Under the pieces are notes generated by a model, which was given only the letters and a program-made list of their open reading frames with translations, ran no database searches and had not been told where the DNA came from. Shown piece by piece: positions 7,140 through 64,000 of a stretch of 64,000 nt of DNA. The stretch's first letter is position 1, and each line of letters starts with the position of its first letter. The stretch covers positions 48,546,001 through 48,610,000 of the forward strand of contig OZ024742.1 of the NCBI GenBank assembly GCA_964016885.1, given 5' to 3'. This DNA comes from Eledone cirrhosa. Its lineage: Eukaryota. Made by a program: the position numbers and the translations under genes.

Positions 7140-7750
7140 GTTTGTTTGTTTACAAACAAACAAACCGAGCATTATAATAAATGTTCGGTAAACCGATACG
7201 TGCATGTATATATGTGTGCATGTATGTATATATATATACACACTACTGTACGTCTGTATACATATATATATGTATGTACGTATACATGCATATATACTTA
7301 CATTTAAGTAAGTGTCGTACTAAGAGTGAGAAATGAAATTTCGTTTCATTCTATTCCATATATCGTTTTCGGTGCGCCCGGCCGACTGAACTCACTCGAT
7401 ATGCAAATTAGGCTGCTCAGCCGTTAATATGCATAAGGAGAGTATATACTTTCAGACGTTCAACCATCTGGCAGGAAGGTATACGATGCTGACGATAGCT
7501 AATAAGCTTGAACACTAGTACATCGTTCCTGTGTCAGTGTTGAACAAAAAGGTGACGTGGTTGCTTAAACACTGTACGGCGTAATTGGGCTGTTTGTTTG
7601 TTTACAAACAAACAAACCGATTATAATAAATCTTCGGTAAACCGATACGTGCATGTATATATGTGTGTATGTATGTATATATATACATACTACTGTACGT
7701 CTGTATACATATATATATGTATGTACGTATACATGCATATATATATATAT
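7140..7750 (+). repeat. Non-coding 452-bp HHR-containing repeat, about 1.35 tandem units (family A)
   Basis: Unit restarts at 7592; HHR 7484-7525 (cgatg CUGACGA t agct-aata-agct t GAA[c]AC ta GUA catcg); octamer 7401-7408. Confidence 0.8.
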
Positions 7751-8236: not shown

Positions 8237-8304
8237 ATATATATATATACATATATATATATAGTTTTGCGAGGTTTTTTATATGAAATCGTGTGTCGAA
8301 ACAA

Positions 8305-11300
8305 ATATTGTTATACTTGGGGAGGGTCATATTTGTGTAATATTGCCAGAATTAATAACAGAACACACTCACTGTTTGGTTGGTTTTAGCTTCTATGTCT
8401 TTTATATCGGTAATCTAATATACTCGGTCCTCAATGTTGCCATTGACTGACCGACGGTAGTAGTAATATAACGGTAGTAGTAATATAAACAATAACTCTG
8501 AGTATAGAAATAACAGCCATAACAATAACAATAGCAGGAAAGTGAGAAATAGTAATAATGGTAATAATACTAACGATAGACAGAACAACAACAACCACAA
8601 TAATAATAATAATAGAAACATTAACCACAGACACAGCAGCAGCGACCACAGTAGTAATAACGGTAACAATACGAACAACAACAAAAATAACCACAGTGGT
8701 AATAATGGAAATAATACATGTAGCAACATTAATGATAGACACAACAAAAACAAGAAACATAATAAAAGTAACAACCGCAATGGTAGAAATAACAGTAACA
8801 ACAACAATAACGGTGAAGTAAACAACAATACAGCTAGCAATCATAACAATAATAATAATGCTAATGATAGGAATAACAACAACCACCATCATAACAATAA
8901 TAGCAACACACAACTATGACGATAGATATAATGACAACCCCTTAGAGAAACTATTTTTCAACCCAGCTGACAAAACATATAAGATGGGTAATATCTATCC
9001 TACGAGGTTACCCTTTAATAAAAGCGTTTGCATACCACAACAAATAGATAACGAGACAGAGGCACAGTTCACCATAGCTAGAAATAAGATTAGACAAATA
9101 GTAGACAGGTATACTGAGAGACAGAGCAGACCAGATGCCCAACAACTTGGGAGGAAACCTGTAGACGGCTTGGTTAGCCTCAAGCAGCGCACAAGGGATG
9201 GTGAGGTAGTATGTCTACCCATGGATAAGTCTGGTAGGATGTCAATAGATAGCATGCCGAACTACATCAAGGCTATGCAACCTCACATCACCAACACGAG
9301 CGAAATTGCACAACAAACACACGATGGGAGAGAGAAAATCCTCAACGCTCACATGATGATGTGGACTGACATCCTAAAGCCAAGCAGACGCACTGCCAAC
9401 AACTTCCAGGCGTCTAACAATGGCATACCACCCTTGTATGTGCTCCGCAAAGACCACAAGACAGTCGACGACCCGACAACGGGACCACCAACAAGACCCG
9501 TGTGCGGAGCTAATATAGCTAGTAACTACAGGATCTCCTACTTCCTCTCAATGGTTATACGCCCCATAATCAAGATGTCCCCGGATGTATGTGACAGTAC
9601 AGAGGACCTCCTCAGCAGAATCAGTGAGTGCAACAAAACAGGAACCTATCCAACTGCATAATAGGCAGCATGGATGTGGTATCACTGTACCCATCCATTA
9701 ACATTGATTTTACTGTGAAAAAATGTGTGGAGATGATCATTGAGAGTGAGGTGGAGTTCGGCGACGTCGACACAGACGAACTGGGCCTCTCTCTTAGACT
9801 TACCTACGACACTGACTACCTAGACAGTCATGACCTTAGACGTTTCTGCCCTAGTAGACCCATAAGAGTTAGACCCCCCACCATAACCTCAATGGCAAAA
9901 AAGACTCCCATGGGAAGGTGGATTGGGTGGACCAAAGCTATACAGACCACCCAAAACAATGATCAGGTAAGAAAAATGATCGCACATGCAATAGGGGCTA
10001 GTATCAAAACTACCCTCAAGGGCCACATATTCAAGTTCACCCAAAATGAAGGAGCAGCCATTGGCGTCAGCATAGCTGGTGATGTTGCCAACCTTTTCAT
10101 GGTATGGTGGGAAAGGAGACTTAAAGATCTCCTTAATGAGAGCTCCATAGACCTCATCATGTACTCTCGTTATGTAGACGATATCAATATAGTTATAAGA
10201 ACATCCCCACTAGAGAGCACTAACAAGTTTGATTTAGAACGTAGCACAATGGAAAGCATCCAGCAGATAGCTAATTCCATACACCAGAGTATAACTGTAA
10301 CTATCGACTTCCCTTCCAAACACCCTAACAATAGACTAGCTGTATTAGACACTGAGCTCTGGATTAACACTATAGACGAGAGAGCCCAAATCTCCACTCA
10401 CACTATGCTAAACCCATGGCCTCCAAATACCTGATACTCAAAAACTCAGCAATGTCCAGTAGTGCTAAGTTTAATATTCTGATCGCAGATTTGGTACGAG
10501 TGATGAAGAATGTGTCCCGCATGTGCGACCCAACAGAAATGGAAAGACATCCAACACTTCATCAACCGCATGCAGTTCTCTGGCTACAACCAAAGAGACA
10601 GATTCAGAGTATACGAAGGAGCCATGGAGAAGTATAAGACCCTCATAGAACTGGACATGAAAGGAATTTGCCCATTATACAGGAGCAAATCATGGAATAG
10701 CTTAGATAGGGCTAGACATAAGATAGGGAAAGCCACCTCATGGTACGACAACCAGAGATACCAGAGTATCATGTTTGTGGACGCTACCCCTGGAGGGAAA
10801 TTAGCTAACCAGTGTAGAAAGACCCTGAGAAAGACCCACTTAAAAATTAAGGTCGTAGAAAAGCCAGGAACCACCATACAATCCCTGATCAGCAAAACCT
10901 ACCCTTTTAAGAAAACCCACTGTACCAATAGGAAGGTAAACCCCCGGATAAACTGTAAGACTAGAAACGTGTGTCTATAGCATAAGGTGTACAGAGGGTA
11001 CCTGCAGAAACATGACAACAACATACATCGGTGAGACAGCTCATAGCATAGGTGAAAGGATAGACCAACACTGGGGGGAACTAAAAGGACGAAAAAACGG
11101 GTCAGTACTATACGAACATGCCAGACAACATGACGGTAACATAGGCAAGATAGAAATTAGAATAATATCTAAAGATAGAAATGACCCAGCAGATAGGCAA
11201 ATCAGAGAGGCCAGTGAAATAGAACATAGAAGACCAAGACTAAAAAGAAAGAATGAATGGAATAACAACAACACCCAAACAAACAACACTGACCTAAGAG

Positions 11301-11822
11301 AAGTATAAATAAGTAAATAAAATAAAATAAAATAAAATAAAATAAATAAAAAAATAAATAAATACATACACAAGCACAATAACAACAAACACATAAACAC
11401 ACATTAGTCACCCAATCACGAACACACATCAGACATCAAACAAAACACTATACACACACGCAAACGCATGCGCAAAGAAGACAAAATAAAATAAACAAAC
11501 AAGCAAATAAATAAATATATAGACAGACTGAATAAAAATGGCGTAGCCATACAATTCTACAGGAGGAAACAACAAGCACCACTGACGATGTTGCAGATGT
11601 GCAACGAAAGATTTATGATAAACTATATATATGTGTTTGTGTCTATATTGTATCTGTGTTATATTTTTGACCGTCGGTCAGTCAATGGCAAAATTGAGGA
11701 CCGAGTATATTAGATTACCGATATAAAAGACACAGAAGCGAAAACCAACCAAACAGTGAGTGTGTTCTGTTATTAATTCTGGCAATATTACACAAATATG
11801 ACCCTCCCCAAGTATAACAATA
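8305..11822 (+). mobile_element. Penelope-like retroelement, 5'-truncated, with inverted terminal segment
   Basis: 8305-8458 is the inverse of 11670-11822; frameshifted RT plus GIY-YIG; decayed HHR 11577-11620; (TA)n nearby on both sides. Confidence 0.9.
8858..11308 (+). pseudogene. Frameshifted PLE reverse transcriptase / GIY-YIG endonuclease ORF
   Basis: DKSG, LYVLRKDHK...TRPV, SMDVVSLYPSI, GAAIG..IAG..ANLFM, RYVDD, YIGETAHSIGERIDQH, RQIREA spread over five frameshifted ORFs. Confidence 0.9.
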
Positions 11823-11839
11823 TATATATATATATATTG

Positions 11840-15479: not shown

Positions 15480-15577
15480 ATTAACTTTGCCTTTCATCCT
15501 CACGAGGTCGATGAAATAAAGTACCAGTAATGCACTGGATAATTGCTGGCCTTATGCCAAAAGTAGAAACAATTATT
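15480..15577 (+). mobile_element. SINE 3' half
   Basis: ttaactttgcctttcatcc...gtcgatgaaataaagtaccag...agtagaaacaattatt. Confidence 0.75.
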
Positions 15578-18224: not shown

Positions 18225-18660
18225 TCTATATATGTATATATATGTACATATATATATATAAGTATGTATACGTACATACATATATGTATACAGACGTACA
18301 GTAGTATGTATATATATATACATACATGCACACATATATATATGTACGTATGGATTTTACCGAACAGCCATTAATATGCATAAGGAAATTATATACTTTC
18401 AGACGTTCAATCATCTGACAGGAAGGTATACGTTGCTGACGATAGATAATAAGCTTGAAACTAGTACATCGTTCCTTTGCCAGTGTTGAACAAAAGGGCA
18501 ACGATGGTTGCTAAACACGGTACGGCTTAATTCGGGATGTTTGTTTACGAACAAACCGAACATTATAATAAATGTTCGGTAAATCCATACGTACATATAT
18601 ATATATGTGTGCATGTATGTATATATATATATACATACTAGTGTACGTCTGTATACATAT
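18225..18660 (+). repeat. Family A HHR repeat copy, internally deleted
   Basis: HHR 18431-18471 with intact CUGACGA/GAAAC/GUA core; homologous to 7200-7750. Confidence 0.75.
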
Positions 18661-18767
18661 ATTATATACATATATTATATATATTTGCTCTACGGTTCAT
18701 ATATATTTGATATATATTCATCCTTATCGAGCTCTCTTTGGATTTTAGTCTTCAAATTTATTATTAT

Positions 18768-19572: not shown

Positions 19573-19752
19573 GGGGAAAGGTTCAGGACCCTGACGGCAG
19601 AGCTCAAGCCGTTTCGACAGCTATATCTGGACGTCCAGATATATCTATCGAAAGGGTCGGGGTCCTTTTCCTATTATCCATTCTACTACCCAAAGTATCG
19701 AGTACTCTGGTGAGTTATGGTCCACCTGGTTCCTTACCTCACTTCCTTCGTT
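19573..19752 (+). mobile_element. Fold-back mini-element in (TA)n, same family as 39401-39820
   Basis: Palindrome centred on tctggacgtccaga and the same 3' tail. Confidence 0.75.
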
Positions 19753-20060
19753 ATATATATATATATTAATTTCAACAATGTCAGTATTCCGTGCGTCATA
19801 ATTCTCGATTATCATTGGTTCATAGGTTTCAAACGATTCCGCCCACCTCAACGACGCCAAACTTAAATTAATATGCATAATGCCAATGAGGGAGTGAGAG
19901 TGCGGAGTGGAGAGTAAGAAACATAGAGCAAAGTGAACGCTGTAACTATTACCATATGTGCGTGTGTATGTACGTGCGCGTATGTTTATGTGTGTGTGCG
20001 TGCGTGCAGCGTTCCACAGAAAGTAAAAGCAATTCGACTTTATAAAACAGTGAACTATAG

Positions 20061-26245: not shown

Positions 26246-26289
<44 letters not shown>

Positions 26290-26291
<2 letters not shown>

Positions 26292-26540
26292 GGTGTGGGA
26301 TGTTTAAAGCGTCCGTAAGCGGTAGGCCGTTTGAGCACTTGATGCTCTTACAGAGCAGAGTATGATATCCCATAAGAAACGGAGAATCAGTGTTGCGACG
26401 AATAAAATTTATTAGACATATTACAATCGTTTCTCTGGCGACCAGCTCGAGGCACGATCAAAGAAATGATCGAACCTGACTCTGAAATCGCGTGGTCCCC
26501 AGATACGTCTCGATTCTACGAAGCAGTGTTTCCAAGGAGC
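26290..26540 (-). mobile_element. Solo pseudo-LTR fragment related to the 28411-33818 element, with long-stem-II HHR relic (26414-26510)
   Basis: Homologous to 33265-33510; 8-bp stem I agacgtat/atatgtct, CUGggGA, GAAAC gatt GUA. Confidence 0.7.
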
Positions 26541-27759: not shown

Positions 27760-28131
27760 TTTTCCCTATTCCAACGGCTTAATTTAAATGTATGGGATTT
27801 AAACTTTTCCGACACTAATTTGCATAATAGACCAATAATAAAATTAGTAACCCCACTATCCGGGAGATTCCAACCGACATGGTTGCATTCTTTAAGTGTT
27901 TGTCAAAATTTGTTTATAAAACTGATTTATATTATATTTTCTCTGATGAAAGCGCACCATATTTTGCTTTGGTATCCTTGAAATATGTATAATGAAATAA
28001 ATATGGTTTTATAAATATAGTTTCCATTTGTTAATATATTGTATTTTTACTCCAAAAATTTGTTGAGTGCTTTATATCAGTTATAAAAATATTTGCTTGT
28101 TGTATCCCAACAAATTAAATATAACTTCTAC

Positions 28132-28410: not shown

Positions 28411-31400
28411 TATCACAGAAAAAAGTGAATCAGTGTTGCGACGAAAGGAATTTATTGGACATATTACAAATGTCTCGAGGCACGATCGATATGTTGATCA
28501 TACCTGACTCTGAAATCTCTCGGTCATCGGGTACGTCTCGATTCTACGAAGCAGATTTTCCTACGTTCCTTTAACATCGAATGTCTTCGTTTGTTGATTC
28601 CACGAGTGGTCAAAAATTGTAAACGTCACCGGTATTTCTAGCCAAACATGGTTGCCCACTTCTTGCTTCTTCTCGTTCTCAACCTGTCAATGAAAATTAC
28701 TTCATGTATCAGAATTTGTACTGAAGTGGTAGAGGGGCTGTAATCTTGAACGGCTGGCATCACTTTGACATCTTCATTGCCCCTAGGTGCCTTAGTCTAC
28801 ATCGGTCAGGTACACACCTGCAATTATGCTGTATGCGGCATTCATCATAAATAATGTTTTGCGGGAATTAAAAAAAAAACCAGATCATAGGTATATTTAG
28901 CGTTACATTTGTAGAACACAGCTGTTGTATACAGTCCGTCATACATATTTGAAAAAGAAAAAGAAAAAGAAAAAGAAAAAGAAAAAGAAAAAGAAAAAGA
29001 AAAAAACCTATATCAGAACATTTTTTTAAAAAACGTTTTTAAAAGAAAGATTTCAACAGCCATTCAAACGGAAGGGGTATATCAAATGTGTTTTCAGAAA
29101 ATAGACACCATTCTACACTCAGACACTAGGCTCAGGGGAGCGTGCATAGCCAAGACGCCGCATATATATATATAGGCAGATGAGAAAAAAAAGAAAAATC
29201 CATGGAAAGTCATCCGTACCTCCACGCATACATGCTCAGAAAAATACATCGACCTATGCATGCGCACACCCGTGCTCATGGATGTCTGTATGGGCACATA
29301 TACATACATACATGCACCCATGTGCTCCCACAGCGGATGCAAATACTCGATGAGTAACCCTCCATCCGTCTACGAACGTGACCTTGACCCAACCTGATCA
29401 CGTGGCGGTGAGTCCGAGGGTGCCTGCACAATATGCCAAAATGTTACGGCAGCACAATATCCCTGGACTAATCGCATATAACGTGGGTGGTACATATATT
29501 AAAAAACCCTGTACGTACATAACGTAAAATAATGAAATAATATACAATAATAATATAAATTAAGATAAAATACAATAAAATAAAATGCAGGAAAAAGAGA
29601 ATGCATACATGACAAGGATGCAGAGGGGGACCGGTCATTATCGAGATGTTCGTAAAGTTTCATACAATAGTTGGGGGCTGTGGTGCAAATGTTTATATGA
29701 TATACATGGGGGATGGTGAGCTAAGGCACTGGGTGGGAGCCTGCGCGTGATGCAGGTCTCGTTGCTTGTGGATGGATACGTGCACAAACAAGTTATATAT
29801 ATTGAGTTTATGTGCAACAATCATTTCATAAAAGTATGTGTGAGATGTGCATGGGTTTGATGTATACATGGATTATAAAGAGTACGTGCTTCATAACGAT
29901 ATATATGGAATGAACGTGGAGTGTATGTATGATGAAATGTGACATTGGCATGCGTTGTGTGCGTATGTATATCAACGGCATGGAACGACAAAATTAAAAC
30001 GTGAAATAAAACCAAAATTAAAATTAAAATTAACACCAACATTACAATTAGCTGCGACATTAACCTTAAGAGCAGCACCATGTCTATCATGCAAGTCGCG
30101 GATTAAACACCGCGAATCGCATATCGGAAATCGATAATTTAAAAATGTTAAAGTTTGAATATTTAGAAATTTGAAAATTTAAAACGACACATATGTTTGT
30201 ATATCCAATCGTACTTGTAATGAGTCGGCGTCCGCAAATTGGTGTGGTGGTTCTATAAAGGTATTCTACGAGGTGTGCAACTTTGGAACTGTCATTGCTG
30301 TCAACATGTGCTGTCATGCATTCAAAGTTGTGTAGTGTTCTATTGTGGTCGGCTGTACGCGCTCCACCTGGTGTTGCGGTGCCGGTGGTGCGCTATGTAG
30401 ATCCACCCGGTATCACTATGGCGGAGATTGTGCATTTACGTTTATGTCTGCATGCCATGATTATTTCAGACTTGAGGTTGACTGCGTCACTCTTAAGTTT
30501 TATTATCTCCATAGACTCGGACAGGCATAACTTGCACTTCCTCTCTCCGGCCGAGTACGCATTCGCATGCTGAACAATACCCCATATGGGGTCATATTCT
30601 ATGCCACTGTCTTTGAGTCTCCATACTAAGTCCGCCAATCTGGTGGAGTACCTTTTGTTCCTGTCCTTGAACGAGCTCTTGTGGTTGTACATCCTCGACT
30701 TAAAAGTCGTGGATGTAGCTCCGATGAATGTGTGCCTATCGTTGTGCGTGGTAACCATACATCTATAGACAATGCCCTTAGTCAGGCACATTCCCTGCAG
30801 GGGGCACTCTTCACGGCCACGGCAGTTACATGTCCGTCCATCATTTTTCCAACACCCGTTACGTGGTCCTGGCATCTTATTTGTGTTCTCATCGCTCCTC
30901 GAGTGGTGCTCCGCGGAGTGGTCGACTCAATGTTCACCACCAGCTGGTCTCTGCTGGCAGGTCTGGGGCCCTCCGCATCCGCGGCACTGCACCCAAGCAC
31001 GTCCCCAGAAACTTCTGCCGCAACCGCGTGCCCTCCCCGCAACCCCCGGCGAGCCTGGTGCCTGATCGTTGCGCCCATGAGGTGTCCTCAATTTCAACGC
31101 GTTGGTCTTGGCCATGTAGTCTGCCATGTTGGGTGCGTGGAAAATGAGAACTTCACGGTGTGCCGATTGAAAATTTTGAGGTACCTGTGTGAAGCCGGGA
31201 AACACTCGTCGAATGCCCTGAGGAAGAGACCTGGCATGTTAGTGCGTACATGCTTCGAGTATGGCGCATTAAACATTTTACGTTTCTATATCTATTTCTA
31301 TTTCCAGTCTGCTACTAGTGGTGTTTGCATTATCAAGCTGCTCTCTCGGGTTAAGCCCTACTCCTAATTGACCCCCCCCCCCCCTCATTATATCCCTATG

Positions 31401-33818
31401 CATAGAACTGTTACTTAAGTCTGTGGAATGGCCTTCCCTGGCTAAGTTGTTCTGGGCTGTTGCTAGCCCTATTTTCCGTCTCTGTCCTTACCCGAGTCTC
31501 CTGTTGTATCATTGCTGGTATTCTTAGTCTTGGTATTACCCCTAGTGCACCGGGCTGTGTTATCTACTTCACCCTCTATGGATTGCGCGTCCTGGTCCGT
31601 GGAGTTACTATTGTTCCCTTCGTATGCGTTGTGGTCCCTATGGTTCCCGAGCTCCCTCAACTGTCTATGCGCTGTGAGGCCATCACTGTCGTGTTTAATA
31701 CTCCTATCTATACTGTTGGGTGTTTGCTTACGGGTAGGCTGTCTGCCTAAGTTATTACTAGCGGTATCCGGGTGTTTGTGTTCCCCGCAATGCGGCCTGC
31801 CCTTGTCCGGGATATACACTATGGATTATGTGTACCCTGCCCTGCCCAGTGCCTCATTGTAGTAGTCGGCTTGCTGATAGAACACATCCACATGTGTATA
31901 CTCGGGTGGAAACCCCCTTGCCTATGGCGTCAATAACCGACCTGGGGTGGTTTGAGTGCCTGTTTACATACTGCAGGTTCTCGTTGGGCTTGTGATATGG
32001 TCGGTATAAGGCTGTATCTAGTTCTAGTCTAGGAAAGTTACTGTCTTTTACTGTCTTAGTACTATTTTCTACAAGCCCGGATAAGCCGTGCTGCTTAAAG
32101 AAATGTGAGATGCGCTTCCGTATGCGCTCCAGCTGGATAGAGTTTAATGAGTGGAAGGTAAATAGGGCATCGTTCCTATATATCAATCCGCCTATCCCTG
32201 GAATCTCCTCTGCTAACCTAGTGCGTAGATAACTTCCCATCAAGTCCGTCACATGTGTGGATCGCTCGAGCACATAGTGATGTCGAAACTGTCGGTCTGT
32301 CTCTCCTTTCCCACAGTCTACCGTCAAACCTAATGAGTGCCTTTCTAGCAGCTATAATGATGTCCACTTTCCTCTACTTAAGTTGGACCTTGCCCTAGGG
32401 TCTTGTTTACAATTACTGGTGAGATAGACTCGTAGTAATCTGCTATATCCAGCTGCACAAAGTTCACTTGCTGTTTGGTGGGCAGCGCTGTAAACCAGTC
32501 TATAACCTCCTTAGTGGAAGTCCATATGCTAAGTCAATTTCTATTCATAAGTGTGGGCAGTATCCTATCCATAATATTCTTACTGGCCGTACCTAGGTCC
32601 GACTTGGAGGGTGCTATTTTCTAACCGGGAGGTTGGTCTTAAGTTCTAATTTATGGTCCTTGATGGAAATCCGCGGTTTTATAGGTACGTATTGTTCTGT
32701 TCTGTCTGCTACTTCCAGTCCTGTCATTAAGTTTTTGGTCGTGTAGTTGATTCTGTCAAGGTTGTCCTGGCCCGTAATCCTATCAATCTTCATAATCTAT
32801 TTCTCCATGCATTTTCTGTAGGTTCCGTGGTTCATCCTGTAAATGTTACCCCTCTTATCCGAAGGTACAAGTAAGTCCGGGCAACTCTCCATGCTTTTAA
32901 TCTTGGAGCTGATTTCTTTCAGGTACTGGTTTCCGCGTGCTGCATTCCTGTTGAATGTTATGTTCCTTACGATGTTTACTATGCCGTTTTCGAAAGTTTC
33001 TAGTGCCCCGTTGTGCGGGTGGTGTCGTCTGGACATTAAAATCCTCCTAAGTCGGACGCGGGTGATGTCCTGAGTCTGTTGTGTATTCCCGTGGTCGTAG
33101 TGGAAGGCGCGCCATCTCATGCTCCTGACAAATGAGTTGGTGTGGTGGCTGAGTAGGCGAAAGTGGGTGTTTTCCGAAGGTATCGGGATGTCTTTCGACG
33201 CGGAAGAGTACTGGAATCGCTCCATGGCAATTCGCTTCAAGCGCTCGACTTGTGGAGGAGCAAAATAATTGGTATTGGATGCTTAAAGCGTCAAGTTGCG
33301 GTAGGCCATATGAGCACTAGATGCCCTCGTGGAGCAAAGTATGGTATCACAGAAAAAAGAGAATGAGTGCTGCGACGAAAGGAATTTATTGGACATATTA
33401 AAAATGTTTCTCGGGCGACCAGTTCGAAGCACGATCGATATGTTGAACATACCTGACTCTGAAATCTCTCGGTCATCGGGTACGTCTCGATTCTACGAAG
33501 CAGATTTTCCTACGGTCCTTTAACATCGAATTTCTTCGTTTGTTGATTTAGATCCTGTTGTTGTCATTCCATGAGTGATCAAGAACTGTAAACGTCACCG
33601 GTATTTCTAGCCACTTATGGTTGCCCACTTCTTGCTTCTTCTCGTTCTCAATCTACCAATGAAAATTTCTTCATGTATCAGAATTAGTACTGAAGTGGTA
33701 GAGGGGCTGTAATCTTGAACGGCTGGCATCACTTCGAAGTGTTCATTGCCCCTAGGCGCCTTAGTCGGTCAGGTACAAACCCGCAATTATGCTGTATGCG
33801 GCATTCATCATAAATAAT
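28411..33818 (-). mobile_element. Near full-length Naiad-like Penelope element with direct pseudo-LTRs
   Basis: Direct repeats 28411-28855 and 33345-33818 carrying HHR relics flank a decayed RT+EN ORF. Confidence 0.85.
30393..33240 (-). pseudogene. Disrupted PLE RT plus GIY-YIG endonuclease
   Basis: SKDIPIP..MRWRAFHY, SDKRGN, QLDIADYYESI, GLIYRND, YHKPN..LQYV..SNHP, FNAPY, CxCx5Cx5C, IVY..FIG.T.TTFKSR..H, CKLC, CRH. Confidence 0.9.
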
Positions 33819-34642
33819 ATAAGTATGTATATGTACATACATATATGTATACAGACGCACAGTAGTATGTATATACATACATGCATACATGCACACATAT
33901 ATACATATTAACGTATGGGTTTACCGAACATTTATCATAATGCTCGGTTTGTTTGTAAACAAACAGGCAGAATTAATAGCCGTACAGTGTTCGGCAACCA
34001 TCGTTGGCATCTTGTTTAATACGGACAAAGGAACGATTAACTAGTTTCTAGATTATTAGCTGTCATCAGCACCGTATACCTTCCCGTCAATCAATTGAAC
34101 GTTTGAAAGTATATACTTTCCATATGCATATTAACTGTGAGCAGCCTAATTTGCATATCGAGTGATTTAGTGCGCCGGGCGTACCGAAAACGATATTTGG
34201 AAAAAATGTAATTTCATTTCTCACTCTTAGTACGGCTGGTACTTAAATATAAGTATGTATACGTACATACATATAGGTATACAGACGTAAAGCAGTATGT
34301 ATATACCTACATACATGCACACATATATATATATATGTACGTATCGGTTTACCGAACATTTATTATAATGTTCGGTTTGCTTGTAACCAAACAGCCCGAA
34401 TTATTAGCCGTACAGTGTTCGGCAACCATCGTTGACATTTTGTTCAACACTGACAAAGGGACGATGAATTAGTTTCTAGCTTATTAGCTGTCATCGGCAC
34501 CGTAAACCCATACATACATATATATATGTGTGCATGTATGTATGTATTTACATACTACTGTACGTCTGTATACATATATGTGTGTACGTATACATACTTA
34601 TATTTAAGTATCAGCCATACTAAGAGTGAGAAATGAAATTTC
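33818..34642 (-). repeat. Family A HHR repeat, about 1.6 tandem units plus an inverted end piece
   Basis: Decayed HHRs at 34034-34074 and 34462-34502, 428 nt apart; atttgcat 34149-34156; inverted segment about 34510-34642. Confidence 0.8.
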
Positions 34643-34696
34643 TATCATAAATAAGGTTTTACGGGAATTTGTTTAGAAAGGGAAATAATCAATTAT

Positions 34697-34748
<52 letters not shown>

Positions 34749-34795
34749 AATAAGGTTTTTCGGGAATTTGTTTAGAAAGGGAAATAATCAATTAT

Positions 34796-34900
<105 letters not shown>

Positions 34901-34971: not shown

Positions 34972-35020
<49 letters not shown>

Positions 35021-35238
35021 AATTAAGTTAAAAATGTACATCCACATATGTATACTGAAATACTAGTATGCATATGAATACACACATGTGTACATATGTA
35101 GATGTACCGAGTTTTTCACTGGACACTTTACTGTGAGTGTTCAGCTATTATGTATGTAAACACAGACAAACCGGTTTTTAGAGTCATTCTGGTTTTCGAG
35201 GAAACACCTTTCCTCTATTCTCCAGAAAGCCAGACAGG

Positions 35239-35283
35239 AATATTGGACTAGTTTCGATGTTGTTACATCTCATCAGCAATATT
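35239..35283 (-). ncRNA. Intact type I hammerhead ribozyme
   Basis: aatattg CUGAUGA gatgt-aaca-acatc GAAAC ta GUC caatatt. Confidence 0.92.
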
Positions 35284-35703
35284 TACCTATCCTCCGGCCT
35301 TTCTAGAAAATCGTAAAAGCACATATCGTTATATGCTTTTTCAATGAAAATTAGTAGTGGGCAGACTAATTTGCATAGAGCGTGAGTACGTACCGGTTCA
35401 GCGGAGACGATAAAAACAAATAACGAAACGAAATTAAATTTCGTTTCGTTTGTAACTCACTTTTGTATGACTGACGCTTAAACAATTAAGTTAAAAATGT
35501 ACATCCACATATGTATACTGAAATACTAGTATGCATATGAATACACACACGTGTACATATGTAGATGTACCGAGTTTTTCACTGGACACTTTACTGTGAG
35601 TGTTCAGTTATTCTGTATGTAAACACACAGACAAACCGGTTTTTAGAGTCATACTGGTTTTCGAGGAAACACCTTTCCTCTATTCTCCAGAAAGCCAGAC
35701 AGG

Positions 35704-35748
35704 AATATTGGACTAGTTTCGATGTTGTTACATCTCATCAGCAATATT
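35704..35748 (-). ncRNA. Intact type I hammerhead ribozyme, second unit
   Basis: Identical to 35239-35283. Confidence 0.92.
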
Positions 35749-36488
35749 TACCTATCCTCCGGCCTTTCTAGAGAATCGTAAAAGCACATATCGTTATATG
35801 CTTTTTCTATGAAAATTAGTAGTGGGCAGACTAATTTGCATAGAGCGTGAGTACGTACCGGTTCAGCGGAGACGATAAAAACAAATAACGAAACGAAATT
35901 AAATTTCGTTTCGTTTGTAACTTACTTTTGTATGACTGACGCTTAAACAATTAAGTTAAAAATGTACATCCACATATGTATACTGAAATACTAGTATGCA
36001 TATGAATACACACACGTGTACATATGTAGATGTACCGAGTTTTTCACTGGACAAATTTAATTTCGTTTCGTTATTTGTTTTTATCGTCTCCGCTGAACCG
36101 GTACGTACTCACGCTCTATGCAAATTAGTATATATATATATATGTATATATCTATGTACATATATATATGTATATACATATATATGTATATATATATGTA
36201 CATATATATGTATATATGTATATATATATGTATATATGTATATATATATGTACATATATATATATATATGTACATATATATGTATATATATATGTATATA
36301 TATATATGTACATATATATATGTATATACATATATATATGTACATATATATATGTATATACATATATATATGTATATACATATATATATATACATATATA
36401 TATGTATATACATATATATATGTACATATATATATATGTATATACATATATATATGTACATATATATATATGTATATACATATATATA

Positions 36489-39009: not shown

Positions 39010-39390
39010 TGTAGATAAATCTACCAAGAGTTTACGGTAGTGTCCAATCCGTATGAAGAACTCAATGTAATCCGGATATCATGGAAAGAAGAGATGCAAT
39101 GAAAAATCACTTTCGGTGAAAGATAAACGGAATACAGAGTCAAGATAAAATATTAAAAAAATAATGAATAAAACAATTTCTGAAGACGGCATATATATGT
39201 GTTGGTATGTATATTTAATTTTGATAGTTTGTATAATTTTGTATAATTTTGTACATAGATCTGTTGAATATGCATGCCAATTCTAACACATATATATCCT
39301 AGAAACGATCGTTAAATAATGAACTTTTTTTGTTTAATATAAGGAACTGTTTCATTGTTTTATTCATTATTTTTTTAATATTTTATATAT
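39010..39390 (+). mobile_element. PLE terminal fragment with long-stem-II HHR (39176-39317) and inverted flanks
   Basis: attt CUGAAGA [115 nt hairpin] GAAAC gatc GUU aaat; 39145-39177 is the inverse of 39353-39386. Confidence 0.7.
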
Positions 39391-39400
39391 ATATATATAT

Positions 39401-39817
39401 ATAGGAGAAAGTATGACCCCGACGACAGAGCTCAAGCCATTATGACGGCTGTTTCTGGACTGTCTAGAAATAGCCGTCGAAACGGCTTGGGCTCTGCCGT
39501 CGGCGTCATACTTTCTCCTATTACCCACTCTACTACCCTAAGTATTGAGTACTATGGTGCGTTATGGTCCATTTGGTTCCTTACCACAACTCCTTCGTTA
39601 TATATATATATATATATATATATAGGAACGAGTAGGACCCCGACGGCTGAGCTCAAGCCGTTTCGACGGCTAATTCTGGACGTCCAGAATTAGCCGTCGA
39701 AACGGCTTGAGCTCAGCCGTCGGGGTCCTACTCGTTCCTATTACCCACTCTACTACCCTAAGTATTGAGTACTTTGGTGCGTTATGGTCCACCTGGTTCC
39801 TTACCACATTTCCTTCG

Positions 39818-39820
<3 letters not shown>
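39401..39820 (+). mobile_element. Two adjacent fold-back mini-elements separated by (TA)n
   Basis: 39622-39741 is a 120-bp palindrome centred at 39681/39682; GAAAC ggct-tgagctc-agcc GUC; shared tail of about 80 nt. Confidence 0.85.
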
Positions 39821-39915
<95 letters not shown>

Positions 39916-61012: not shown

Positions 61013-64000
61013 TATATATATATTCACATATCATACATAGATACATATATACTCATGCAATTACGGGTGGTTGTGTAACTTGTTGCATAAATCTAAGGAA
61101 GCTAAAACATTAAAAGGTAAGATAGTTAGTGATACGGTTGTATTGTGATTTTGTGTTATGTTGTTTTTGTGTTGGTGATTTGGGTGGTTGTGTTTTCCAG
61201 GTTGAAGGATTGTATTATTTGTTCTTTTAAAAGGTGCAGTCCTATTTAAATTATGTTGTGGTGGTGTGGTCATATTATTTTTAAATTTATAAATGTTGTA
61301 GTTGCTTATTTTTTGCTGGAGTTTGTTTGATGTAGAGTATGAGAATTTAACAGTATACCTGTTAAATATTTGGTGGTATCTGTGGTTTGGTGGAAAATGT
61401 TAATGTAGAATTTCGAAGAATTTTTTGGGGATTTTCCAATAGTATGCAAGTTGAAGGGTGCGTTGTACCATGTTATGTTTCTTTTGCGGTTTTTAGTTAA
61501 GTTTGTATTACCATTTATATTAATGTGCTGTGTTATAGAAGAATTCCTATGGTTAGTATCTGTATTTGTGGAATTTGGTAAATTGCAGTGGTTGTATTTG
61601 GTGTTATTATTGGGTAGATTATGAGAGGTTGAATGCTTGATATTCATATGTGAGTTGATAACATTAGTCATAGAGCGTGTAGTAATAGTTGTGGTTTTTC
61701 GGTTGTTTGGTGTGATGGGAATGACCCCATTAGGTATTTGTTTCGATGGTATTTTTTGGTGTTTGTAGTTTTTGCTAGGTTTTATATTTTGGTCCATAGT
61801 AGTGTTGGGGATATATGAAATGTTTTCTTTATATCCACTTCTAGTTAAGGCCTCGTTGTAGCAGGGTGCATTATTATAAAATATATCTCCATTGGAAGAT
61901 AATTTAAAAAGTCTAAGAGATATGTTATATACTAATTTTTTGAGTATAGAGCCAGGGTGGTTAGAGCGTGAATGTACATAGTGTAGATTCTGGTTGGGTT
62001 TGAGGTAAGGTTGATAAATATTCGTATAGAGGTCTAAGGTAACATCAATGCAATTAGGTACTTTTGAAGTGTTTTCAAAGGTGATGTTATGGTTGTAATA
62101 GTCCTTGAGGAATTTTCTAATTTGTTTTTTTGTTTTTCTCTATATTAGAATTGCTAAGATTGTTAGATAACAATAGACAATCATCCCGATAAAGACCACC
62201 TTTGAGGTGGGGAAATGTATTTTAAGACGTATCATACGCTGTATTATACTATGTACAATTTACCACACCGTACGGGGCCGATAAAATAAAGTTCCAATAA
62301 TGTACTGGGTAATTGCTGGCCTTGTGCTTAAAGTAGAAACAATTATATTATATTATTGTAATACTCTATTTCATTATCTTATTATAATTTTCATCTTGTA
62401 ATATACTTTCTTTCCTAGTCATGACCTTAATTTATATTCACCTAAATTCTCCATACAACACAACTCAACATTTGATTTTTACATTCCTTTTAAACTTCAC
62501 TCTACCATATACATTCAAATATCAATTTGACAATCCCCTTTTTCCTAATACATTCTTTATAGCAATTCTATTGTTAACACCATTTAACCATTCCTTTCAA
62601 AGGGTCATGACCTCAACTAAAGTGAATTATTTTTCATCTTAATATCATATAGAAAAAAACAATCTCTTTGGTTTTTTCTTCAGCTACCTTCAAATAATGT
62701 CATAGAACTCAATTTACTACTAATTTACTACTAATTTTGAAAAAAATTCTCATTGCTTTTGACAACAGCTGGTGATATGCATGTAAGTACATATTCTCCC
62801 TATGTAACTAACCTTACATAGATCGAAAACGAAGTATAGTTACGATGTATTATCATCACCTACAAACGATCGTAAAGCAGTGAAGTATATTTCTAGTGAC
62901 TTGATTTTTTATTTCATTGTTTTAACTTATATCATGACTCTGTTTTCCTTTTAATGTTTTGTTTTCCGGGATTTATTTTAACCTACAACATTTTCAACAT
63001 ATTGATTACATTGAGTTCTTCATGCAGACTGGACTCCACAACTTACCGTGGATATCTCTGTGTATTTTGCTCCTTCAATATATTTTTTCATAATTTTTTC
63101 CACTTCTGTGATTATAATATTTAGTTGAGCTCTTTTTTTTTTTATCTAATTCCTGCATCACAATGGAAAAACAATATTTGGGTACCTCGTTGAAGAATAT
63201 TCCAATTCCACCTAAAGATGAATATCTACTCTTGCTCATACAAAAGACTAACCAATTTATTAGGAGAATGTGATGAAGGGCCTATCATTTTGACAACAAA
63301 ACCAATACAGATGAAATGAAGTACCGCTATGGATTCAAAACATACGCAAATCCCCCTCATAATATTCAACTTGAAAATTTTGAGAGCGCCCTACTGAACA
63401 TGATTAAAAACATAAAGTTCAGAAAACAGAAATCTGAATTCCAAAAGGGATTAGACTCTACTCTTCGACCACTGAACAATTCAAACAAGGTCGATGTTCA
63501 TTCTGACGAAACTGGTACTTTGTACCATATGGATATCGATAAATATAACCAGGTCATATATAAAGAACCTAGAAAAAACTATAAGAAAGCAAGCACCACC
63601 GCACTGACATCCTTGAACAACATATCATGTGATATAGTAAAATAAACTCCATATTGAAGATAGAACTGAGCCTTTCACAACCTAAGAGCCCGCACTTCAA
63701 CCTGAAGGACTATAAATCTTACTTTAATTCGAACCCATCTATTAGACTGATATGCCCATCAAAATCTGATATTGATAATATCAACAAGAGAATTATTGAT
63801 CGTATCATTCCACACATTAGTAAATGTGTAACACTTCCATTATGGGATAAAACTTCCCAAGTTACTGAATGGTTCACTAGCATAGAGAATAAAAACTCAG
63901 CTTCATTCATTGAATTCGACATTGATTCTTACTATTCTTCGATTTCTTCAATTCTTTTAAACAAAGCACTGATCTTCGCCAGAAATAGATCGGATTTATG

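What the first reader, a model, noticed from the sequence alone, without database searches (positions are those of the whole stretch)
7140..7750. Second, older dispersed HHR repeat family (430-450 bp) related to the 465-bp repeat
Four loci (7140-7750, 18225-18660, 33818-34642, 51890-52327) start at different points of the same unit, form partial tandems, and two have inverted ends. This fits copying from a circular or multimeric RNA. Stem I covaries (gatg/catc at 7485 versus gttg/caac at 52012). It shares with family B the order aaatttcgtttc...atcgt..cg...ctcac..tatgcaaattag, then an HHR with actagt stem III, suggesting a superfamily. One copy lies within about 400 bp of the family B array.
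Basis: partly seen in the sequence, partly recalled or inferred. Interest (0 to 1): 0.75.

Follow-up and report, generated by a model that had tools for sequence, protein, structure and literature searches.

The report
Penelope-type hammerhead retrozyme family, dead copies
These four loci are crippled copies of a very abundant, non-coding repeat that carries a hammerhead ribozyme motif (an animal "retrozyme"); the copies bear the insertion marks of Penelope-like retrotransposons, whose enzyme likely wrote them into (TA)n tracts, so this is a known kind of element that this scan has already met many times in this genome.

Summary
Four loci (7140-7743, 18255-18667, 33817-34642, 51882-52327) are copies of one ORF-less unit of about 430-453 bp with a type I hammerhead motif. 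The unit is homologous to the 465-bp family B.

Two details need correcting:
- Three of the four loci, not two, have an inverted arm.
- "Older" fits only one subfamily. Best non-self identity in the genome is 99%, 98% and 92% for three A subfamilies, against 99% for B.

In 62 loci (110 runs) the copies follow strict rules:
- 5' ends vary.
- 3' ends fall at two sites 60 nt apart (unit positions about 164 and 224), mostly joined to (TA)n.
- There are 41 head-to-head pairs and no tail-to-tail pair. A pair usually has one short and one long end.

These are the published marks of Penelope-like elements (PLEs): both strands cut and extended, two internal reverse-transcription start sites that produce the "tail", and AT-rich targets. 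So the varied start points and inverted ends come from PLE-type insertion, not from random opening of a circle. A multi-unit or circular RNA template remains likely.

Hammerhead stems I and II covary between subfamilies and family B. All four window copies look inactive.

A and B also share a block identical to the upstream element of this genome's U6 genes, followed by a TATA-like box.

This is a new member of a known kind. The scan found the same thing before on other DNA of this genome.

The parts
7140..7743 (+). Family A locus 7 (subfamily A1). A solo run of 1.35 units: u1-435, an 18-nt linker, then u1-157. The 3' end is of the short (S) type, on a short TA tract.
   Evidence: blastn. It is 99% identical to other genomic copies over 7420-7574.
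7458..7545 (+). Hammerhead domain of locus 7. Long stem I: 7458-7484 with 7521-7545. Core CTGACGA: 7489-7495. Stem II: 7496-7509. GAA(C)A plus the ACTAGT palindrome: 7510-7519. The predicted cut lies between 7520 and 7521. The extra C at 7513 is private to this copy and disrupts the core.
   Evidence: Read from the sequence. Alignment of 49 copies. The C is left out in 113251.5 of 114943.1 summed contig depth in run X1.
7400..7449 (+). Promoter-like block: TATGCAAATTAG (7400-7411), then TATATAC (7443-7449) 42 nt after the A of ATGC. It is the best-conserved stretch between A and B outside the hammerhead.
   Evidence: Alignment. The 12-mer occurs 6 times in the window against 0.01 expected. The same element sits at -76 to -78, with TATA at -30, in 6 of 9 distinct U6 upstream regions of this genome.
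7300..7364 (+). The two recurrent 3'-end sites. S lies after 7303 (u164, ...ACTTACAT|TTAAGT). L lies after 7363 (u224, ...CCATATAT|CGTTTTCGG). They flank the conserved hairpin GAAATGAAATTTCGTTTC (7331-7348).
   Evidence: Of 105 run ends, 52 lie in u201-225 (37 exactly at u224) and 36 lie in u151-175.
18255..18379 (-). Locus 18, inverted arm: u30-157, S-type outer end on a TA-rich tract.
18365..18667 (+). Locus 18, direct arm: u279-433 then u4-132, head-to-head with the arm above. Its hammerhead has a C-to-A change in stem II and a U.U in stem I.
33817..34508 (-). Locus 33/34, minus run of 1.5 units (subfamily A3, diverged): u339-435, u17-435, u4-156. Both hammerheads are degenerate (CCGATGA in one, a broken stem II in the other). 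The S-type end abuts the 5' end of a PLE at 33816.
   Evidence: The best genomic relative is at 92%.
34502..34642 (+). Locus 33/34, direct arm: u49-203, head-to-head with the minus run. It ends 10-20 nt short of the L site.
51882..51975 (-). Locus 52, inverted arm: u150-245. It runs about 21 nt past the L site.
51992..52327 (+). Locus 52, direct run (subfamily A2): u326-435 then u8-224. The L end ...CCGTTTAT joins (AT)n. The core reads CTAACGA (G5 to A), predicted inactive.
   Evidence: It is 98% identical to other genomic copies. CTAACGA occurs in 4 of 48 parsed A2 copies.
35016..36053 (-). Family B array: 2.24 units of 465 bp with the hammerhead on the minus strand. The 3' end at 35016 is the S site of B and sits on (TA)n.
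   Evidence: TRF. Rfam Hammerhead_HH9 scores 34.2 bits (gathering 52), E 3e-6, at 35224-35294 and 35689-35759.
36053..36129 (+). Family B inverted arm (b40-116), head-to-head with the array. Its outer end sits on a TA-rich microsatellite.

Best explanation
Family A is an abundant, ORF-less repeat of about 430-453 bp with a type I hammerhead motif. It is likely mobilised in trans by the reverse transcriptase-endonuclease of Penelope-like elements (PLEs). That enzyme would cut both strands of a (TA)n tract and start cDNA on each strand at one of two internal sites of a multi-unit RNA.

Shown directly:
- Copy number is high, with at least four subfamilies.
- The family is homologous to family B.
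- The hammerhead core is conserved and stems I and II covary.
- 5' ends vary and runs reach 6 units.
- There are two fixed 3' ends 60 nt apart that flank a conserved hairpin.
- Outer ends commonly sit on (TA)n.
- Pairs are strictly head-to-head, with no target DNA between the arms, and usually have one short and one long end.
- RT/GIY-YIG-type elements with the same end architecture lie in the same window.

Inferred:
- A PLE enzyme does the copying.
- The two arms are made in one event, one from each DNA strand.
- The template is an uncut multimer or a re-ligated circle, not a cut linear monomer.

Predicted only:
- The motif self-cleaves, probably as a dimer through the ACUAGU palindrome of helix III.
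- The block identical to the U6 upstream element, with its TATA-like box, drives transcription of each unit.

The four window copies are dead relics. Each hammerhead carries a core or stem defect, and no locus has two intact ribozymes.
For: Abundance. First-look candidates number 340 (A1), 1077 (A2), 1383 (A3) and 887 (B). In each search only 40 were scored, so these are lower bounds. In run X1, 7284 contigs were laid on the unit.

Architecture in 62 loci and 110 runs:
- 41 adjacent (-,+) head-to-head pairs and 0 (+,-) pairs; binomial p 9e-13.
- The apparent gaps between arms are element sequence, not (TA)n.
- Of 105 run ends, 52 lie at u201-225 (37 exactly at u224) and 36 at u151-175.
- Of the 30 pairs with both ends classed S or L, 25 are S+L, 4 L+L and 1 S+S; p 1.3e-4.
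- 33 of 92 S or L flanks are pure TA tracts, against 181 of 3100 random 20-mers in the same loci.
- The junction ...CCATTTAT|(AT)n is seen copy by copy.

Family B obeys the same rules. 13 of 15 loci have a (-,+) pair and none has a (+,-) pair. In 8 pairs both outer ends lie at the two B sites (b about 460 and b71), and all 8 are mixed. The L site of B aligns with the L site of A.

Literature:
- PLE insertions show 5' truncation, partial tandems, an inverted 5'-truncated copy upstream, a tail at one end and a (TA)n bias (PMC8557442, passages).
- A purified PLE protein cuts and extends both strands and prefers AT-rich DNA. It starts reverse transcription at two adjacent internal sites, which delimit the tail, and uses unprocessed multi-copy RNA (PMC11167929, main text).
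- Animal retrozymes have been proposed to be non-autonomous PLE derivatives (PMC7229834, passages; preprint 10.64898/2026.07.22.740005, abstract, one section and passages).

Hammerhead:
- The core CTGA[CT]GA...GAAAC-TAGT-H is kept in 35 of 39, 41 of 48 and 11 of 11 parsed copies of A1, A2 and A3.
- On 13 sequences, 91.2% of cells are paired against 30-42% for slid partners. 11 of 29 pairs changed on both sides, and 0 of 500 shuffles reached this.

No coding capacity: the longest stop-to-stop frame in a unit dimer is 85 aa, and GC is 37.7%.

RT/EN elements in the window:
- 8265-11830 (+) holds an RT ORF 67% identical to an 803-aa RT-domain protein, and a VYSIRC..YIGET motif that matches that protein's C-terminus (E 2e-7).
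- It also has an inverted 5' arm with a tail of about 45 nt, and both of its ends sit on (TA)n.
- 28411-33816 (-) has pseudo-LTRs and a weak GIY-YIG match.
Against: - No autonomous PLE sharing sequence with A or B was found. The two RT/EN elements in the window show no blastn similarity to the unit.
- Their Pfam support is below the curated cut-offs: RVT_1 E 2e-4, GIY-YIG E 0.0097.
- No RNA evidence is available. No RNA run is listed, so transcription, cleavage and circles are unshown.
- No Rfam hammerhead model matches family A at E<=1.
- The 10.1-11.1 pair at the base of helix II is a mismatch in all parsed family A copies: U.U in 39 of 39 and 48 of 48, C.A in 11 of 11. Helix III has only 2 bp. 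Activity may therefore be weak or need a dimer or a protein.
- In 4-5 of 18 head-to-head pairs the arms belong to different subfamilies. This fits two template RNAs per event, but also successive insertions.
- 11 of 41 pairs have an end at neither site.
- The loci were picked with hammerhead-region queries, so run lengths are biased and the sample is not a census.
- The TATA-like box lies 42-43 nt from the U6-type element, against 47 nt in U6 genes.
Confidence: 0.85

Rival explanations
1. Self-cleaved monomers are ligated into circles, and a reverse transcriptase runs round one circle (rolling circle). This would give tandem copies that start anywhere in the unit. It concerns the template only and can be combined with PLE-type integration.
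For: - Runs cross the predicted cleavage site (u381/382) without a break and reach 2-6 units.
- 5' ends are not piled at the cleavage site: 3 of 105 lie in u376-400, against about 6 expected if uniform. Cut linear monomers were therefore not the template.
- Circles are documented for retrozymes of coral, mussel and axolotl (PMC7229834, abstract and passages).
Against:
- A PLE uses unprocessed multi-copy RNA with internal initiation in vitro, and hammerhead mutants insert equally well (PMC11167929, main text). Circles are therefore not required.
- Units inside one array are not near-identical: mean 94.7%, range 90-99%, 31 pairs, against 89.6% between loci of mixed subfamilies. A recent rolling-circle copy of one circle would give near-identical units. 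Age could explain the difference.
- No RNA data are available.
Confidence: 0.35
2. The copies are not an independent non-autonomous family. They would be 5'-truncated ends (pseudo-LTRs) of an autonomous PLE whose body was not sampled.
For: - PLE insertions are mostly 5'-truncated and often retain only terminal repeats (preprint 10.64898/2026.07.22.740005, Discussion passage).
- In Xenopus, retrozymes match PLE pseudo-LTRs (same preprint, section 14).
Against: - In all multi-unit runs, unit end joins unit start directly (u435, an 18-nt linker, then u1), for up to 6 units, with no room for an ORF.
- The longest open frame in a unit dimer is 85 aa.
- None of the 62 loci shows the unit continuing into other element sequence at its 5' side. 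The partner found there is another arm of the same family.
Confidence: 0.07
3. DNA-level origin. The loci would be a satellite spread by segmental duplication, or a foldback/MITE-type DNA transposon with terminal inverted repeats.
For: Inverted arms and tandem units are superficially like foldback elements and satellites.
Against: - Hundreds to thousands of dispersed loci on many chromosomes have unrelated flanks.
- The inner breakpoints of the arms vary and are asymmetric, while the outer ends are fixed. This is the opposite of cut-and-paste terminal repeats.
- The arms can belong to different subfamilies, which excludes simple snap-back.
- There are no tail-to-tail pairs.
Confidence: 0.03

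Closest known systems
Metazoan non-LTR retrozymes (Cervera and de la Pena 2020, PMC7229834; abstract and passages read)
   Same: - Type I hammerhead in short tandem repeats of 150-450 bp.
- Low GC, no ORF, no LTR/PBS/PPT.
- Many dispersed copies that co-exist with PLEs.
- A weak helix III with a palindromic loop. The axolotl HHR_Amex2 type has a U.U mismatch at the base of helix II, as in A1 and A2.
   Different: - Circular RNA and self-cleavage are shown there and untested here.
- The main text of that paper does not contain the words 'inverted' or 'microsatellite'.
- In this family the head-to-head rule, the two fixed 3' ends and the (TA)n target are explicit.
Penelope-like element insertion architecture (Craig et al. 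2021, PMC8557442, passages) and its in vitro basis (Frangieh et al. 2024, PMC11167929, main text)
   Same: - 5' truncation and partial tandems.
- An inverted 5'-truncated copy joined at the 5' side.
- An extension ('tail') at one end only, which corresponds to two internal RT start sites.
- Both target strands extended, and a preference for AT-rich or (TA)n targets.
   Different: - Family A has no RT/EN ORF, so it must borrow the enzyme.
- The distance between the two sites is 60 nt in A and about 71-79 nt in B, against 30-40 bp reported for PLE tails.
- The hammerhead is a full type I motif with a long stem I, not the minimal PLE variant.
- Both ends stop at TAT-like letters, so microhomology with (TA)n cannot be excluded. 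The anole PLE starts at a site not homologous to the target.
Newt satellite 2 (hammerhead repeat with an snRNA-type promoter; Coats, Zhang and Epstein 1994, seen only as cited in a passage of PMC2220036)
   Same: A hammerhead-bearing tandem repeat that carries promoter elements of small-nuclear-RNA genes inside each unit.
   Different: - The newt promoter is reported there as a Pol II snRNA type.
- Here the block matches the upstream element of U6 (Pol III) genes and is followed by a TATA-like box. The sampled U1 genes lack the element.
- Function is untested here. The original paper was not held.
Plant LTR retrozymes (Cervera et al. 2016, PMC4918200; search listing and abstract only)
   Same: Non-autonomous retroelements with hammerheads, thought to spread through circular RNA.
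   Different: Plant elements have type III hammerheads in LTRs, a PBS and PPT, 4-bp target duplications and high GC, and are thought to use LTR-retrotransposon enzymes. None of this applies here.

Membership tests
Hammerhead ribozyme, type I | Conserved catalytic core C3-U4-G5-A6-N7-G8-A9 ... G12-A13-A14, an A15.1-U16.1 pair, and a cleavage-site base H17 that is not G | tested here: met
   CTGACGA or CTGATGA ... GAAAC-TAGT-(A/T/C) is found in 35 of 39 (A1), 41 of 48 (A2) and 11 of 11 (A3) parsed copies. H17 is A, A and T respectively. Family B has CTGATGA...GAAACTAGTC. The core numbering is recalled from textbook knowledge.
Hammerhead ribozyme, type I | Three helices around the core, with helix I open (type I), supported by covariation | tested here: met
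   91.2% of cells are paired, against 30-42% for slid partners. 11 of 29 pairs changed on both sides, and 0 of 500 shuffles reached this. Most double changes come from the single family B row. The pair at alignment columns 34-70 varies within A (GU 4, AU 3, UA 3, UG 1). Helix III is invariant: 2 bp inside the ACUAGU palindrome.
Hammerhead ribozyme, type I | Watson-Crick pair 10.1-11.1 at the base of helix II | tested here: not met
   U.U in 39 of 39 and 48 of 48 parsed A1 and A2 copies, and C.A in 11 of 11 A3 copies. G-C occurs only in family B. A U.U at this place is reported for the axolotl HHR_Amex2 (PMC7229834, passage).
Hammerhead ribozyme, type I | Match to a curated covariance model (Rfam clan CL00010) | tested here: not met
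   - Family A: no match at the gathering score in the window, and none at E<=1 on modal copies L003, L046 and L044.
- Family B: Hammerhead_HH9 at 34.2 bits, below the gathering score of 52, E 3e-6.
Hammerhead ribozyme, type I | Self-cleavage | not testable with these tools
   This needs in vitro transcription of natural monomer and dimer constructs.
Metazoan non-LTR retrozyme | Type I hammerhead inside tandem repeats of about 150-450 bp, low GC, no ORF, dispersed multi-copy | tested here: met
   The unit is 428-453 bp, GC is 37.7% and the longest frame is 85 aa. Runs hold 0.1-6.2 units at dispersed loci on many contigs.
Metazoan non-LTR retrozyme | Expressed as linear and circular monomer RNA | not testable with these tools
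   No RNA holder is listed, and only contigs of runs of unknown kind could be laid.
PLE-type insertion (non-autonomous passenger) | Variable 5' truncation with partial tandems | tested here: met
   The 105 run 5' ends are spread over the unit, with excesses at u1-25 (22) and u51-75 (12). Typical runs hold 1.0-1.6 units.
PLE-type insertion (non-autonomous passenger) | Inverted 5'-truncated copy joined at the 5' side | tested here: met
   41 head-to-head pairs and 0 tail-to-tail pairs among 110 runs. In family B, 13 of 15 loci have such a pair.
PLE-type insertion (non-autonomous passenger) | Two alternative 3' ends (the tail), with the extension at one end only | tested here: met
   Ends fall at u164 and u224. 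25 of the 30 pairs with both ends classed S or L are mixed (p 1.3e-4). In family B, 8 of 8 are mixed.
PLE-type insertion (non-autonomous passenger) | AT-rich or (TA)n target | tested here: met
   33 of 92 S or L flanks are pure TA tracts, against 5.8% of random 20-mers in the same loci. The junctions are listed.
Penelope-like element (autonomous) | ORF encoding RT plus a GIY-YIG endonuclease | tested here: not met
   The unit has no ORF, so family A is not itself a PLE.

The most novel reading that the evidence does not exclude
Each unit would be a complete three-module parasite of a parasite:
- a host U6-type (Pol III) upstream element plus a TATA box, which makes every inserted unit self-transcribing;
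- a hammerhead that trims the transcript;
- a hairpin flanked by the two entry sites of a Penelope-like reverse transcriptase.

The near-obligate pairing of one short and one long end in head-to-head insertions would mean that a dimeric PLE complex copies two RNAs at once. There would be one RNA per DNA strand, each started at a different site. The in vitro work did not resolve such an asymmetry.
Probability: 0.3. Interest if true: 0.6.

Novelty: new member of a known kind. Interest (0 to 1): 0.4.

Why it matters
The link between animal retrozymes and Penelope-like elements rests, in the papers read here, on co-occurrence and on sequence similarity to pseudo-LTRs. This family, with its sister family B, gives mechanistic footprints at the sequence level: two fixed start sites, both strands extended, (TA)n targets and one tail per pair. 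These footprints match what a purified PLE protein does in vitro.

That makes the proposed trans-mobilisation directly testable with natural sequences. The block identical to the U6 upstream element suggests how such ORF-less repeats stay transcribed after each jump.

For annotation, it explains clusters of inverted, partly tandem repeats in (TA)n tracts. Such clusters would otherwise be read as satellites or foldback elements.

Tried and rejected
- RNA evidence. The look-up of sequencing runs listed no RNA holder. The second laid only contigs of runs of unknown kind, which cannot show RNA ends or circles.
- Rfam. There were no hammerhead hits for family A. The sub-threshold mir-297, mir-466 and mir-3149 hits on the TA/TG-rich hairpin (u57-175) are low-complexity look-alikes. 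There was no hit at E<=1 on the hammerhead-like motif of the RT/EN element at 11450-11800.
- Pfam on the window's RT and EN frames gave only sub-threshold RVT_1 and GIY-YIG matches. The two EN-like frames do not align to each other. The protein atlas gave only unnamed RT-like clusters.
- The autonomous partner was not identified. The unit shows no blastn similarity to either RT/EN element of the window.
- Test for a rolling circle by unit identity within arrays: 94.7% within arrays against 89.6% between loci of mixed subfamilies. This is inconclusive.
- Minimum-energy folds of the hammerhead domain reproduce stems I and II. They do not decide between monomer and dimer.
- Snap-back (a single cDNA folding on itself) was rejected as the origin of the inverted arms. 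Arm breakpoints are asymmetric, and 4-5 of 18 pairs mix subfamilies.
- U1 genes lack the ATGCAAAT-type element. They share another motif (AAATCAGT-like, near -55), so the element is U6-type and not a general snRNA element.
- Look-up of earlier scan notes by sequence found nothing.
- The newt promoter paper (PMC308520) is not held.
Full report
**What is there.**
The window is AT-rich (34.7% GC) and full of microsatellites. It lies in a 3.0-Gb eukaryote genome.

I took window 7140-7574 as the reference unit (positions u1-435). An 18-nt linker follows, so the period is 453 bp.
- Locus 7 is + u1-435 followed by + u1-157.
- Locus 18 is - u30-157 joined to + u279-433 and + u4-132.
- Locus 33/34 is - u339-435, - u17-435 and - u4-156, joined to + u49-203.
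- Locus 52 is - u150-245 joined to + u326-435 and + u8-224.

All four loci are partial tandems. Three of them, not two, carry an inverted arm. The gap between locus 33/34 and the family B array (35016-36053, period 465, 2.2 copies) is 374 bp.

**Abundance and age.**
Searches of the window's own genome with the ribozyme region gave these results:

| Query copy | Subfamily | First-look candidates | Identity of best matches |
|---|---|---|---|
| copy 7 | A1 | 340 | 95-99% |
| copy 52 | A2 | 1077 | 96-98% |
| copy 34 | A3 | 1383 | best non-self 92% |
| family B | B | 887 | 99% |

Only 40 candidates were scored in each search, so these counts are lower bounds. In one public run of the same organism, 7284 contigs were laid on the unit. 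Two other organisms hold contigs 90-95% alike.

"Older" therefore fits only the A3 copy. The 80-90% identity among the window copies reflects subfamilies.

**Architecture.**
I mapped the unit on 62 loci: 58 genomic loci of about 3.1 kb and the four window loci. This gave 110 runs.
- *5' ends.* The 105 ends not cut by a locus border are spread over the whole unit. There are excesses at the u1-26 palindrome (22 ends) and at u51-75 (12 ends). Only 3 lie at u376-400, where the predicted ribozyme cut is.
- *3' ends.* These are concentrated at two places. 52 of 105 lie in u201-225, with 37 exactly at u224. 36 of 105 lie in u151-175. Read copy by copy, the long end is ...CCATTTAT followed by (AT)n, where internal copies continue with CGTTTTCGG. 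The short end is ...ACTTA(C/T)AT followed by (TA)n, where internal copies continue with TTAAGTAA. The two sites are 60 nt apart (u164 and u224) and flank the hairpin GAAATGAAATTTCGTTTC.
- *Flanks.* 33 of 92 such ends are followed by a pure TA tract of 20 nt, against 181 of 3100 random 20-mers in the same loci. Several other ends sit on (TC)n(TA)n or on interrupted TA tracts.
- *Pairs.* Neighbouring runs form 41 head-to-head pairs and no tail-to-tail pair (p 9e-13). The apparent gaps between arms are element sequence, so no target DNA lies between the two 5' ends.
- *Ends within pairs.* In 30 pairs both outer ends fall at the two sites. Of these, 25 combine one short and one long end, 4 are long+long and 1 is short+short (p 1.3e-4). 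The other 11 pairs have an end elsewhere.

Family B behaves the same way. 13 of 15 loci have a head-to-head pair and none has a tail-to-tail pair. The ends fall at b about 460 and at b71. All 8 pairs with both ends at these sites are mixed. The long site of B (GTTTTTAT|CG) aligns with the long site of A.

**What the architecture means.**
These are the published hallmarks of Penelope-like elements. They comprise strong 5' truncation, partial tandems and an inverted 5'-truncated copy at the 5' side. A tail is present at one end only, and insertion favours (TA)n (PMC8557442, passages).

The in vitro work on a purified PLE protein (PMC11167929, main text) explains them:
- The protein cuts and extends both target strands.
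- It prefers AT-rich DNA.
- It starts reverse transcription at two adjacent sites inside the template RNA. The stretch between these sites is the tail.
- It uses unprocessed multi-copy RNA, and hammerhead mutants insert as well as the wild type.

Animal retrozymes were proposed to borrow PLE enzymes (PMC7229834, Discussion passages). A 2026 preprint argues this from co-occurrence and from similarity to pseudo-LTRs.

Family A has no ORF: the longest frame in a unit dimer is 85 aa. I therefore read it as a non-autonomous passenger of PLE machinery.

This removes the idea that start points mark random opening of a circle.

The template question stays open. Runs cross the cleavage site and reach 6 units, and 5' ends do not pile at the cut, so cut linear monomers were not copied. 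Both uncut multimers and re-closed circles fit. Units within arrays are 90-99% alike (mean 94.7%, 31 pairs), which does not decide between them.

Arms of different subfamilies occur in 4-5 of 18 pairs. This argues against snap-back of one cDNA and for two template molecules. Successive insertions cannot be excluded.

**The ribozyme.**
The common form in natural copies reads as follows: stem I 5' strand, CUGACGA, U-AGCU-AAUA-AGCU-U, GAAAC-UAGU-A, then the cut, then stem I 3' strand.
- *Core.* It is kept in 35 of 39 (A1), 41 of 48 (A2) and 11 of 11 (A3) parsed copies.
The forms are CGAUG/CAUCG in A1, CGUUG/CAGCG or CGUUG/CAACG in A2, CGGUG/CAUCG in A3 and AUAUUG/CAAUAU in B.
- *Pair counts.* On 13 natural sequences, 91.2% of cells pair, against 30-42% with slid partners. 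11 of 29 pairs changed on both sides, and 0 of 500 shuffles reached this. Two cautions apply: most double changes come from the single B row, and the structure was drawn from these sequences.
- *Departures from the textbook motif.* There is a mismatch at 10.1-11.1 in every parsed family A copy: U.U in A1 and A2, C.A in A3. B has G-C. Helix III is only 2 bp inside the palindrome ACUAGU, which suggests action as a dimer. Both features are described for amphibian retrozymes (PMC7229834, passage).
- *Rfam.* It reports B only below threshold (HH9, 34.2 against 52 bits). It does not report A at all.
- Cleavage is therefore predicted, not shown.

**State of the window copies.**
- Copy 7 has a private extra C between GAA and helix III. 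This C is absent from 113251.5 of 114943.1 summed contig depth.
- Copy 18 has a broken stem II pair and a U.U in stem I.
- Copy 52 has G5 changed to A.
- Both ribozymes of locus 33/34 are degenerate.
- No locus holds two intact ribozymes, so none could release a unit-length RNA.

**Relation to family B.**
A and B align over about 250 nt. The shared parts are the hairpin region AAATTTCGTTTC, the long 3' site, a block ACTCAC-N4-TATGCAAATTAG followed by a TATA-like box, and the ribozyme. The superfamily idea is supported.

Their closeness in the window is best explained by a shared target. Five insertions of this end type sit between 28.4 and 36.7 kb, in or beside TA tracts: the two arms of A, the RT/EN element at 28411-33816, and the B array with its inverted arm.

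**The promoter-like block.**
The 12-mer TATGCAAATTAG occurs 6 times in the window, against 0.01 expected. Five of these lie in A or B copies.

I fetched U6 genes of the same genome. 6 of 9 distinct upstream regions, on three contigs, carry ATGC[AT]AAT[TG]AG at -76 to -78 and a TATA box at -30. One carries the exact 12-mer. The 10 sampled U1 upstream regions lack the element.

In the repeat, the TATA-like box follows 42-43 nt after the element, against 47 nt in U6 genes. A start about 30 nt further on would fall in the 5' strand of stem I. This is a prediction.

An snRNA-type promoter in a hammerhead repeat is on record for newt satellite 2. I saw this only as cited in PMC2220036. My searches for retrozyme together with snRNA or promoter terms found no paper describing such an element in an invertebrate retrozyme.

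**RT/EN elements in the window.**
- *8265-11830 (+).* It holds an RT-like frame (RVT_1, E 2e-4) that is 67% identical to an 803-aa RT-domain protein. A VYSIRC..YIGET motif aligns to that protein's C-terminus (E 2e-7). It also has an inverted 5' arm (8265-8460) that runs about 45 nt past the element's normal end. Both of its ends are on (TA)n.
- *28411-33816 (-).* It has two pseudo-LTR copies (85.6% identical) and a weak GIY-YIG match. It ends on (TA)n.
- Neither element shares sequence with A or B, so the actual helper is not identified.

**Earlier notes of this scan.**
After I had reached this reading, look-ups showed that other agents had described 310-, 422- and 467-nt hammerhead repeats of this same genome in the same terms. 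One family was noted with two ends 59 bases apart. These are unchecked AI notes and not independent evidence. They do mean that the scan has found this before on other DNA.

**Verdict.**
The element is a new member (family and subfamilies) of a known kind, the PLE-type animal retrozyme. The window copies are dead.

Noticed in passing
window 8265-11830 (+): A degenerate RT/GIY-YIG-type retroelement, likely Penelope-like. The RT frame is at 9628-10434 and the EN motif at about 10970-11060. A CTGACGA...GAAAG hammerhead-like motif lies near 11583-11612, with no Rfam hit. An inverted 5' arm at 8265-8460 has a tail of about 45 nt. Both ends sit on (TA)n.
   Followed up: partly
window 28411-33816 (-): A second degenerate RT/EN element, with pseudo-LTR copies at 33818-33345 and 28855-28411 (85.6% identical) and a weak GIY-YIG frame at 30393-30926. 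Its 3' end ...CTGTGAT joins (AT)n. Its 5' end abuts the short end of the family A run at 33817. A related pseudo-LTR fragment lies at 26286-26533.
   Followed up: partly
window 27815-27826 (-): An isolated exact copy of the U6-type element TATGCAAATTAG outside any A or B copy, with a TTTAAAT-like stretch about 43 nt downstream. No known RNA gene was recognised after it.
   Followed up: no
window 39384-39844 and 19615-19777: A 220-bp tandem repeat (2.1 copies, 89% matches) with a related copy at 19615-19777 (67%). It contains CCGACGA...CGAAAC-like strings and long self-complementary stretches. It may be another ribozyme-like repeat family.
   Followed up: no
window 15502-15576, 42537-42611, 48443-48517, 56222-56296, 62272-62346: Five dispersed copies of a repeat of at least 75 nt (...GATAAAATAAAGTACCAGTAATGTACTGG...GGCCTTGTGCC...), 61-87% alike. 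It may be a SINE-like family.
   Followed up: no
window 34646-34851: A 99-bp unit repeated 2.1 times (97% matches), each unit ending in (TA)n. It lies between the family A arm and the family B array.
   Followed up: no
L095-L112 (G000 contig C19, about 31.78-31.84 Mb) and L113-L128 (contig C2): U6 genes form a tandem cluster with a period of about 1.8 kb. U1 genes form clusters with a period of about 2.7 kb. The U1 upstream regions share an AAATCAGT-like motif near -55 and, in some copies, a TATA-like box near -30.
   Followed up: partly
unit positions u57-175 (window 7196-7315 and the equivalent stretch in every copy): A long imperfect TA/TG-rich hairpin inside every unit scores 40-55 bits against the mir-297, mir-466 and mir-3149 models. 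All scores are far below the gathering scores. These are most likely low-complexity look-alikes, but the hairpin is a conserved part of the element.
   Followed up: partly
L sites of A1, A2 and B (window 7364-7372; 52328 region; B unit b60-71): Runs of 4-6 T on the sense strand sit at or next to the long 3' site in all families (CGTTTTCGG; CATTTTTTCC; GTTTTTAT). If the units are read by Pol III these would be terminators. A few copies end inside them (u229).
   Followed up: no
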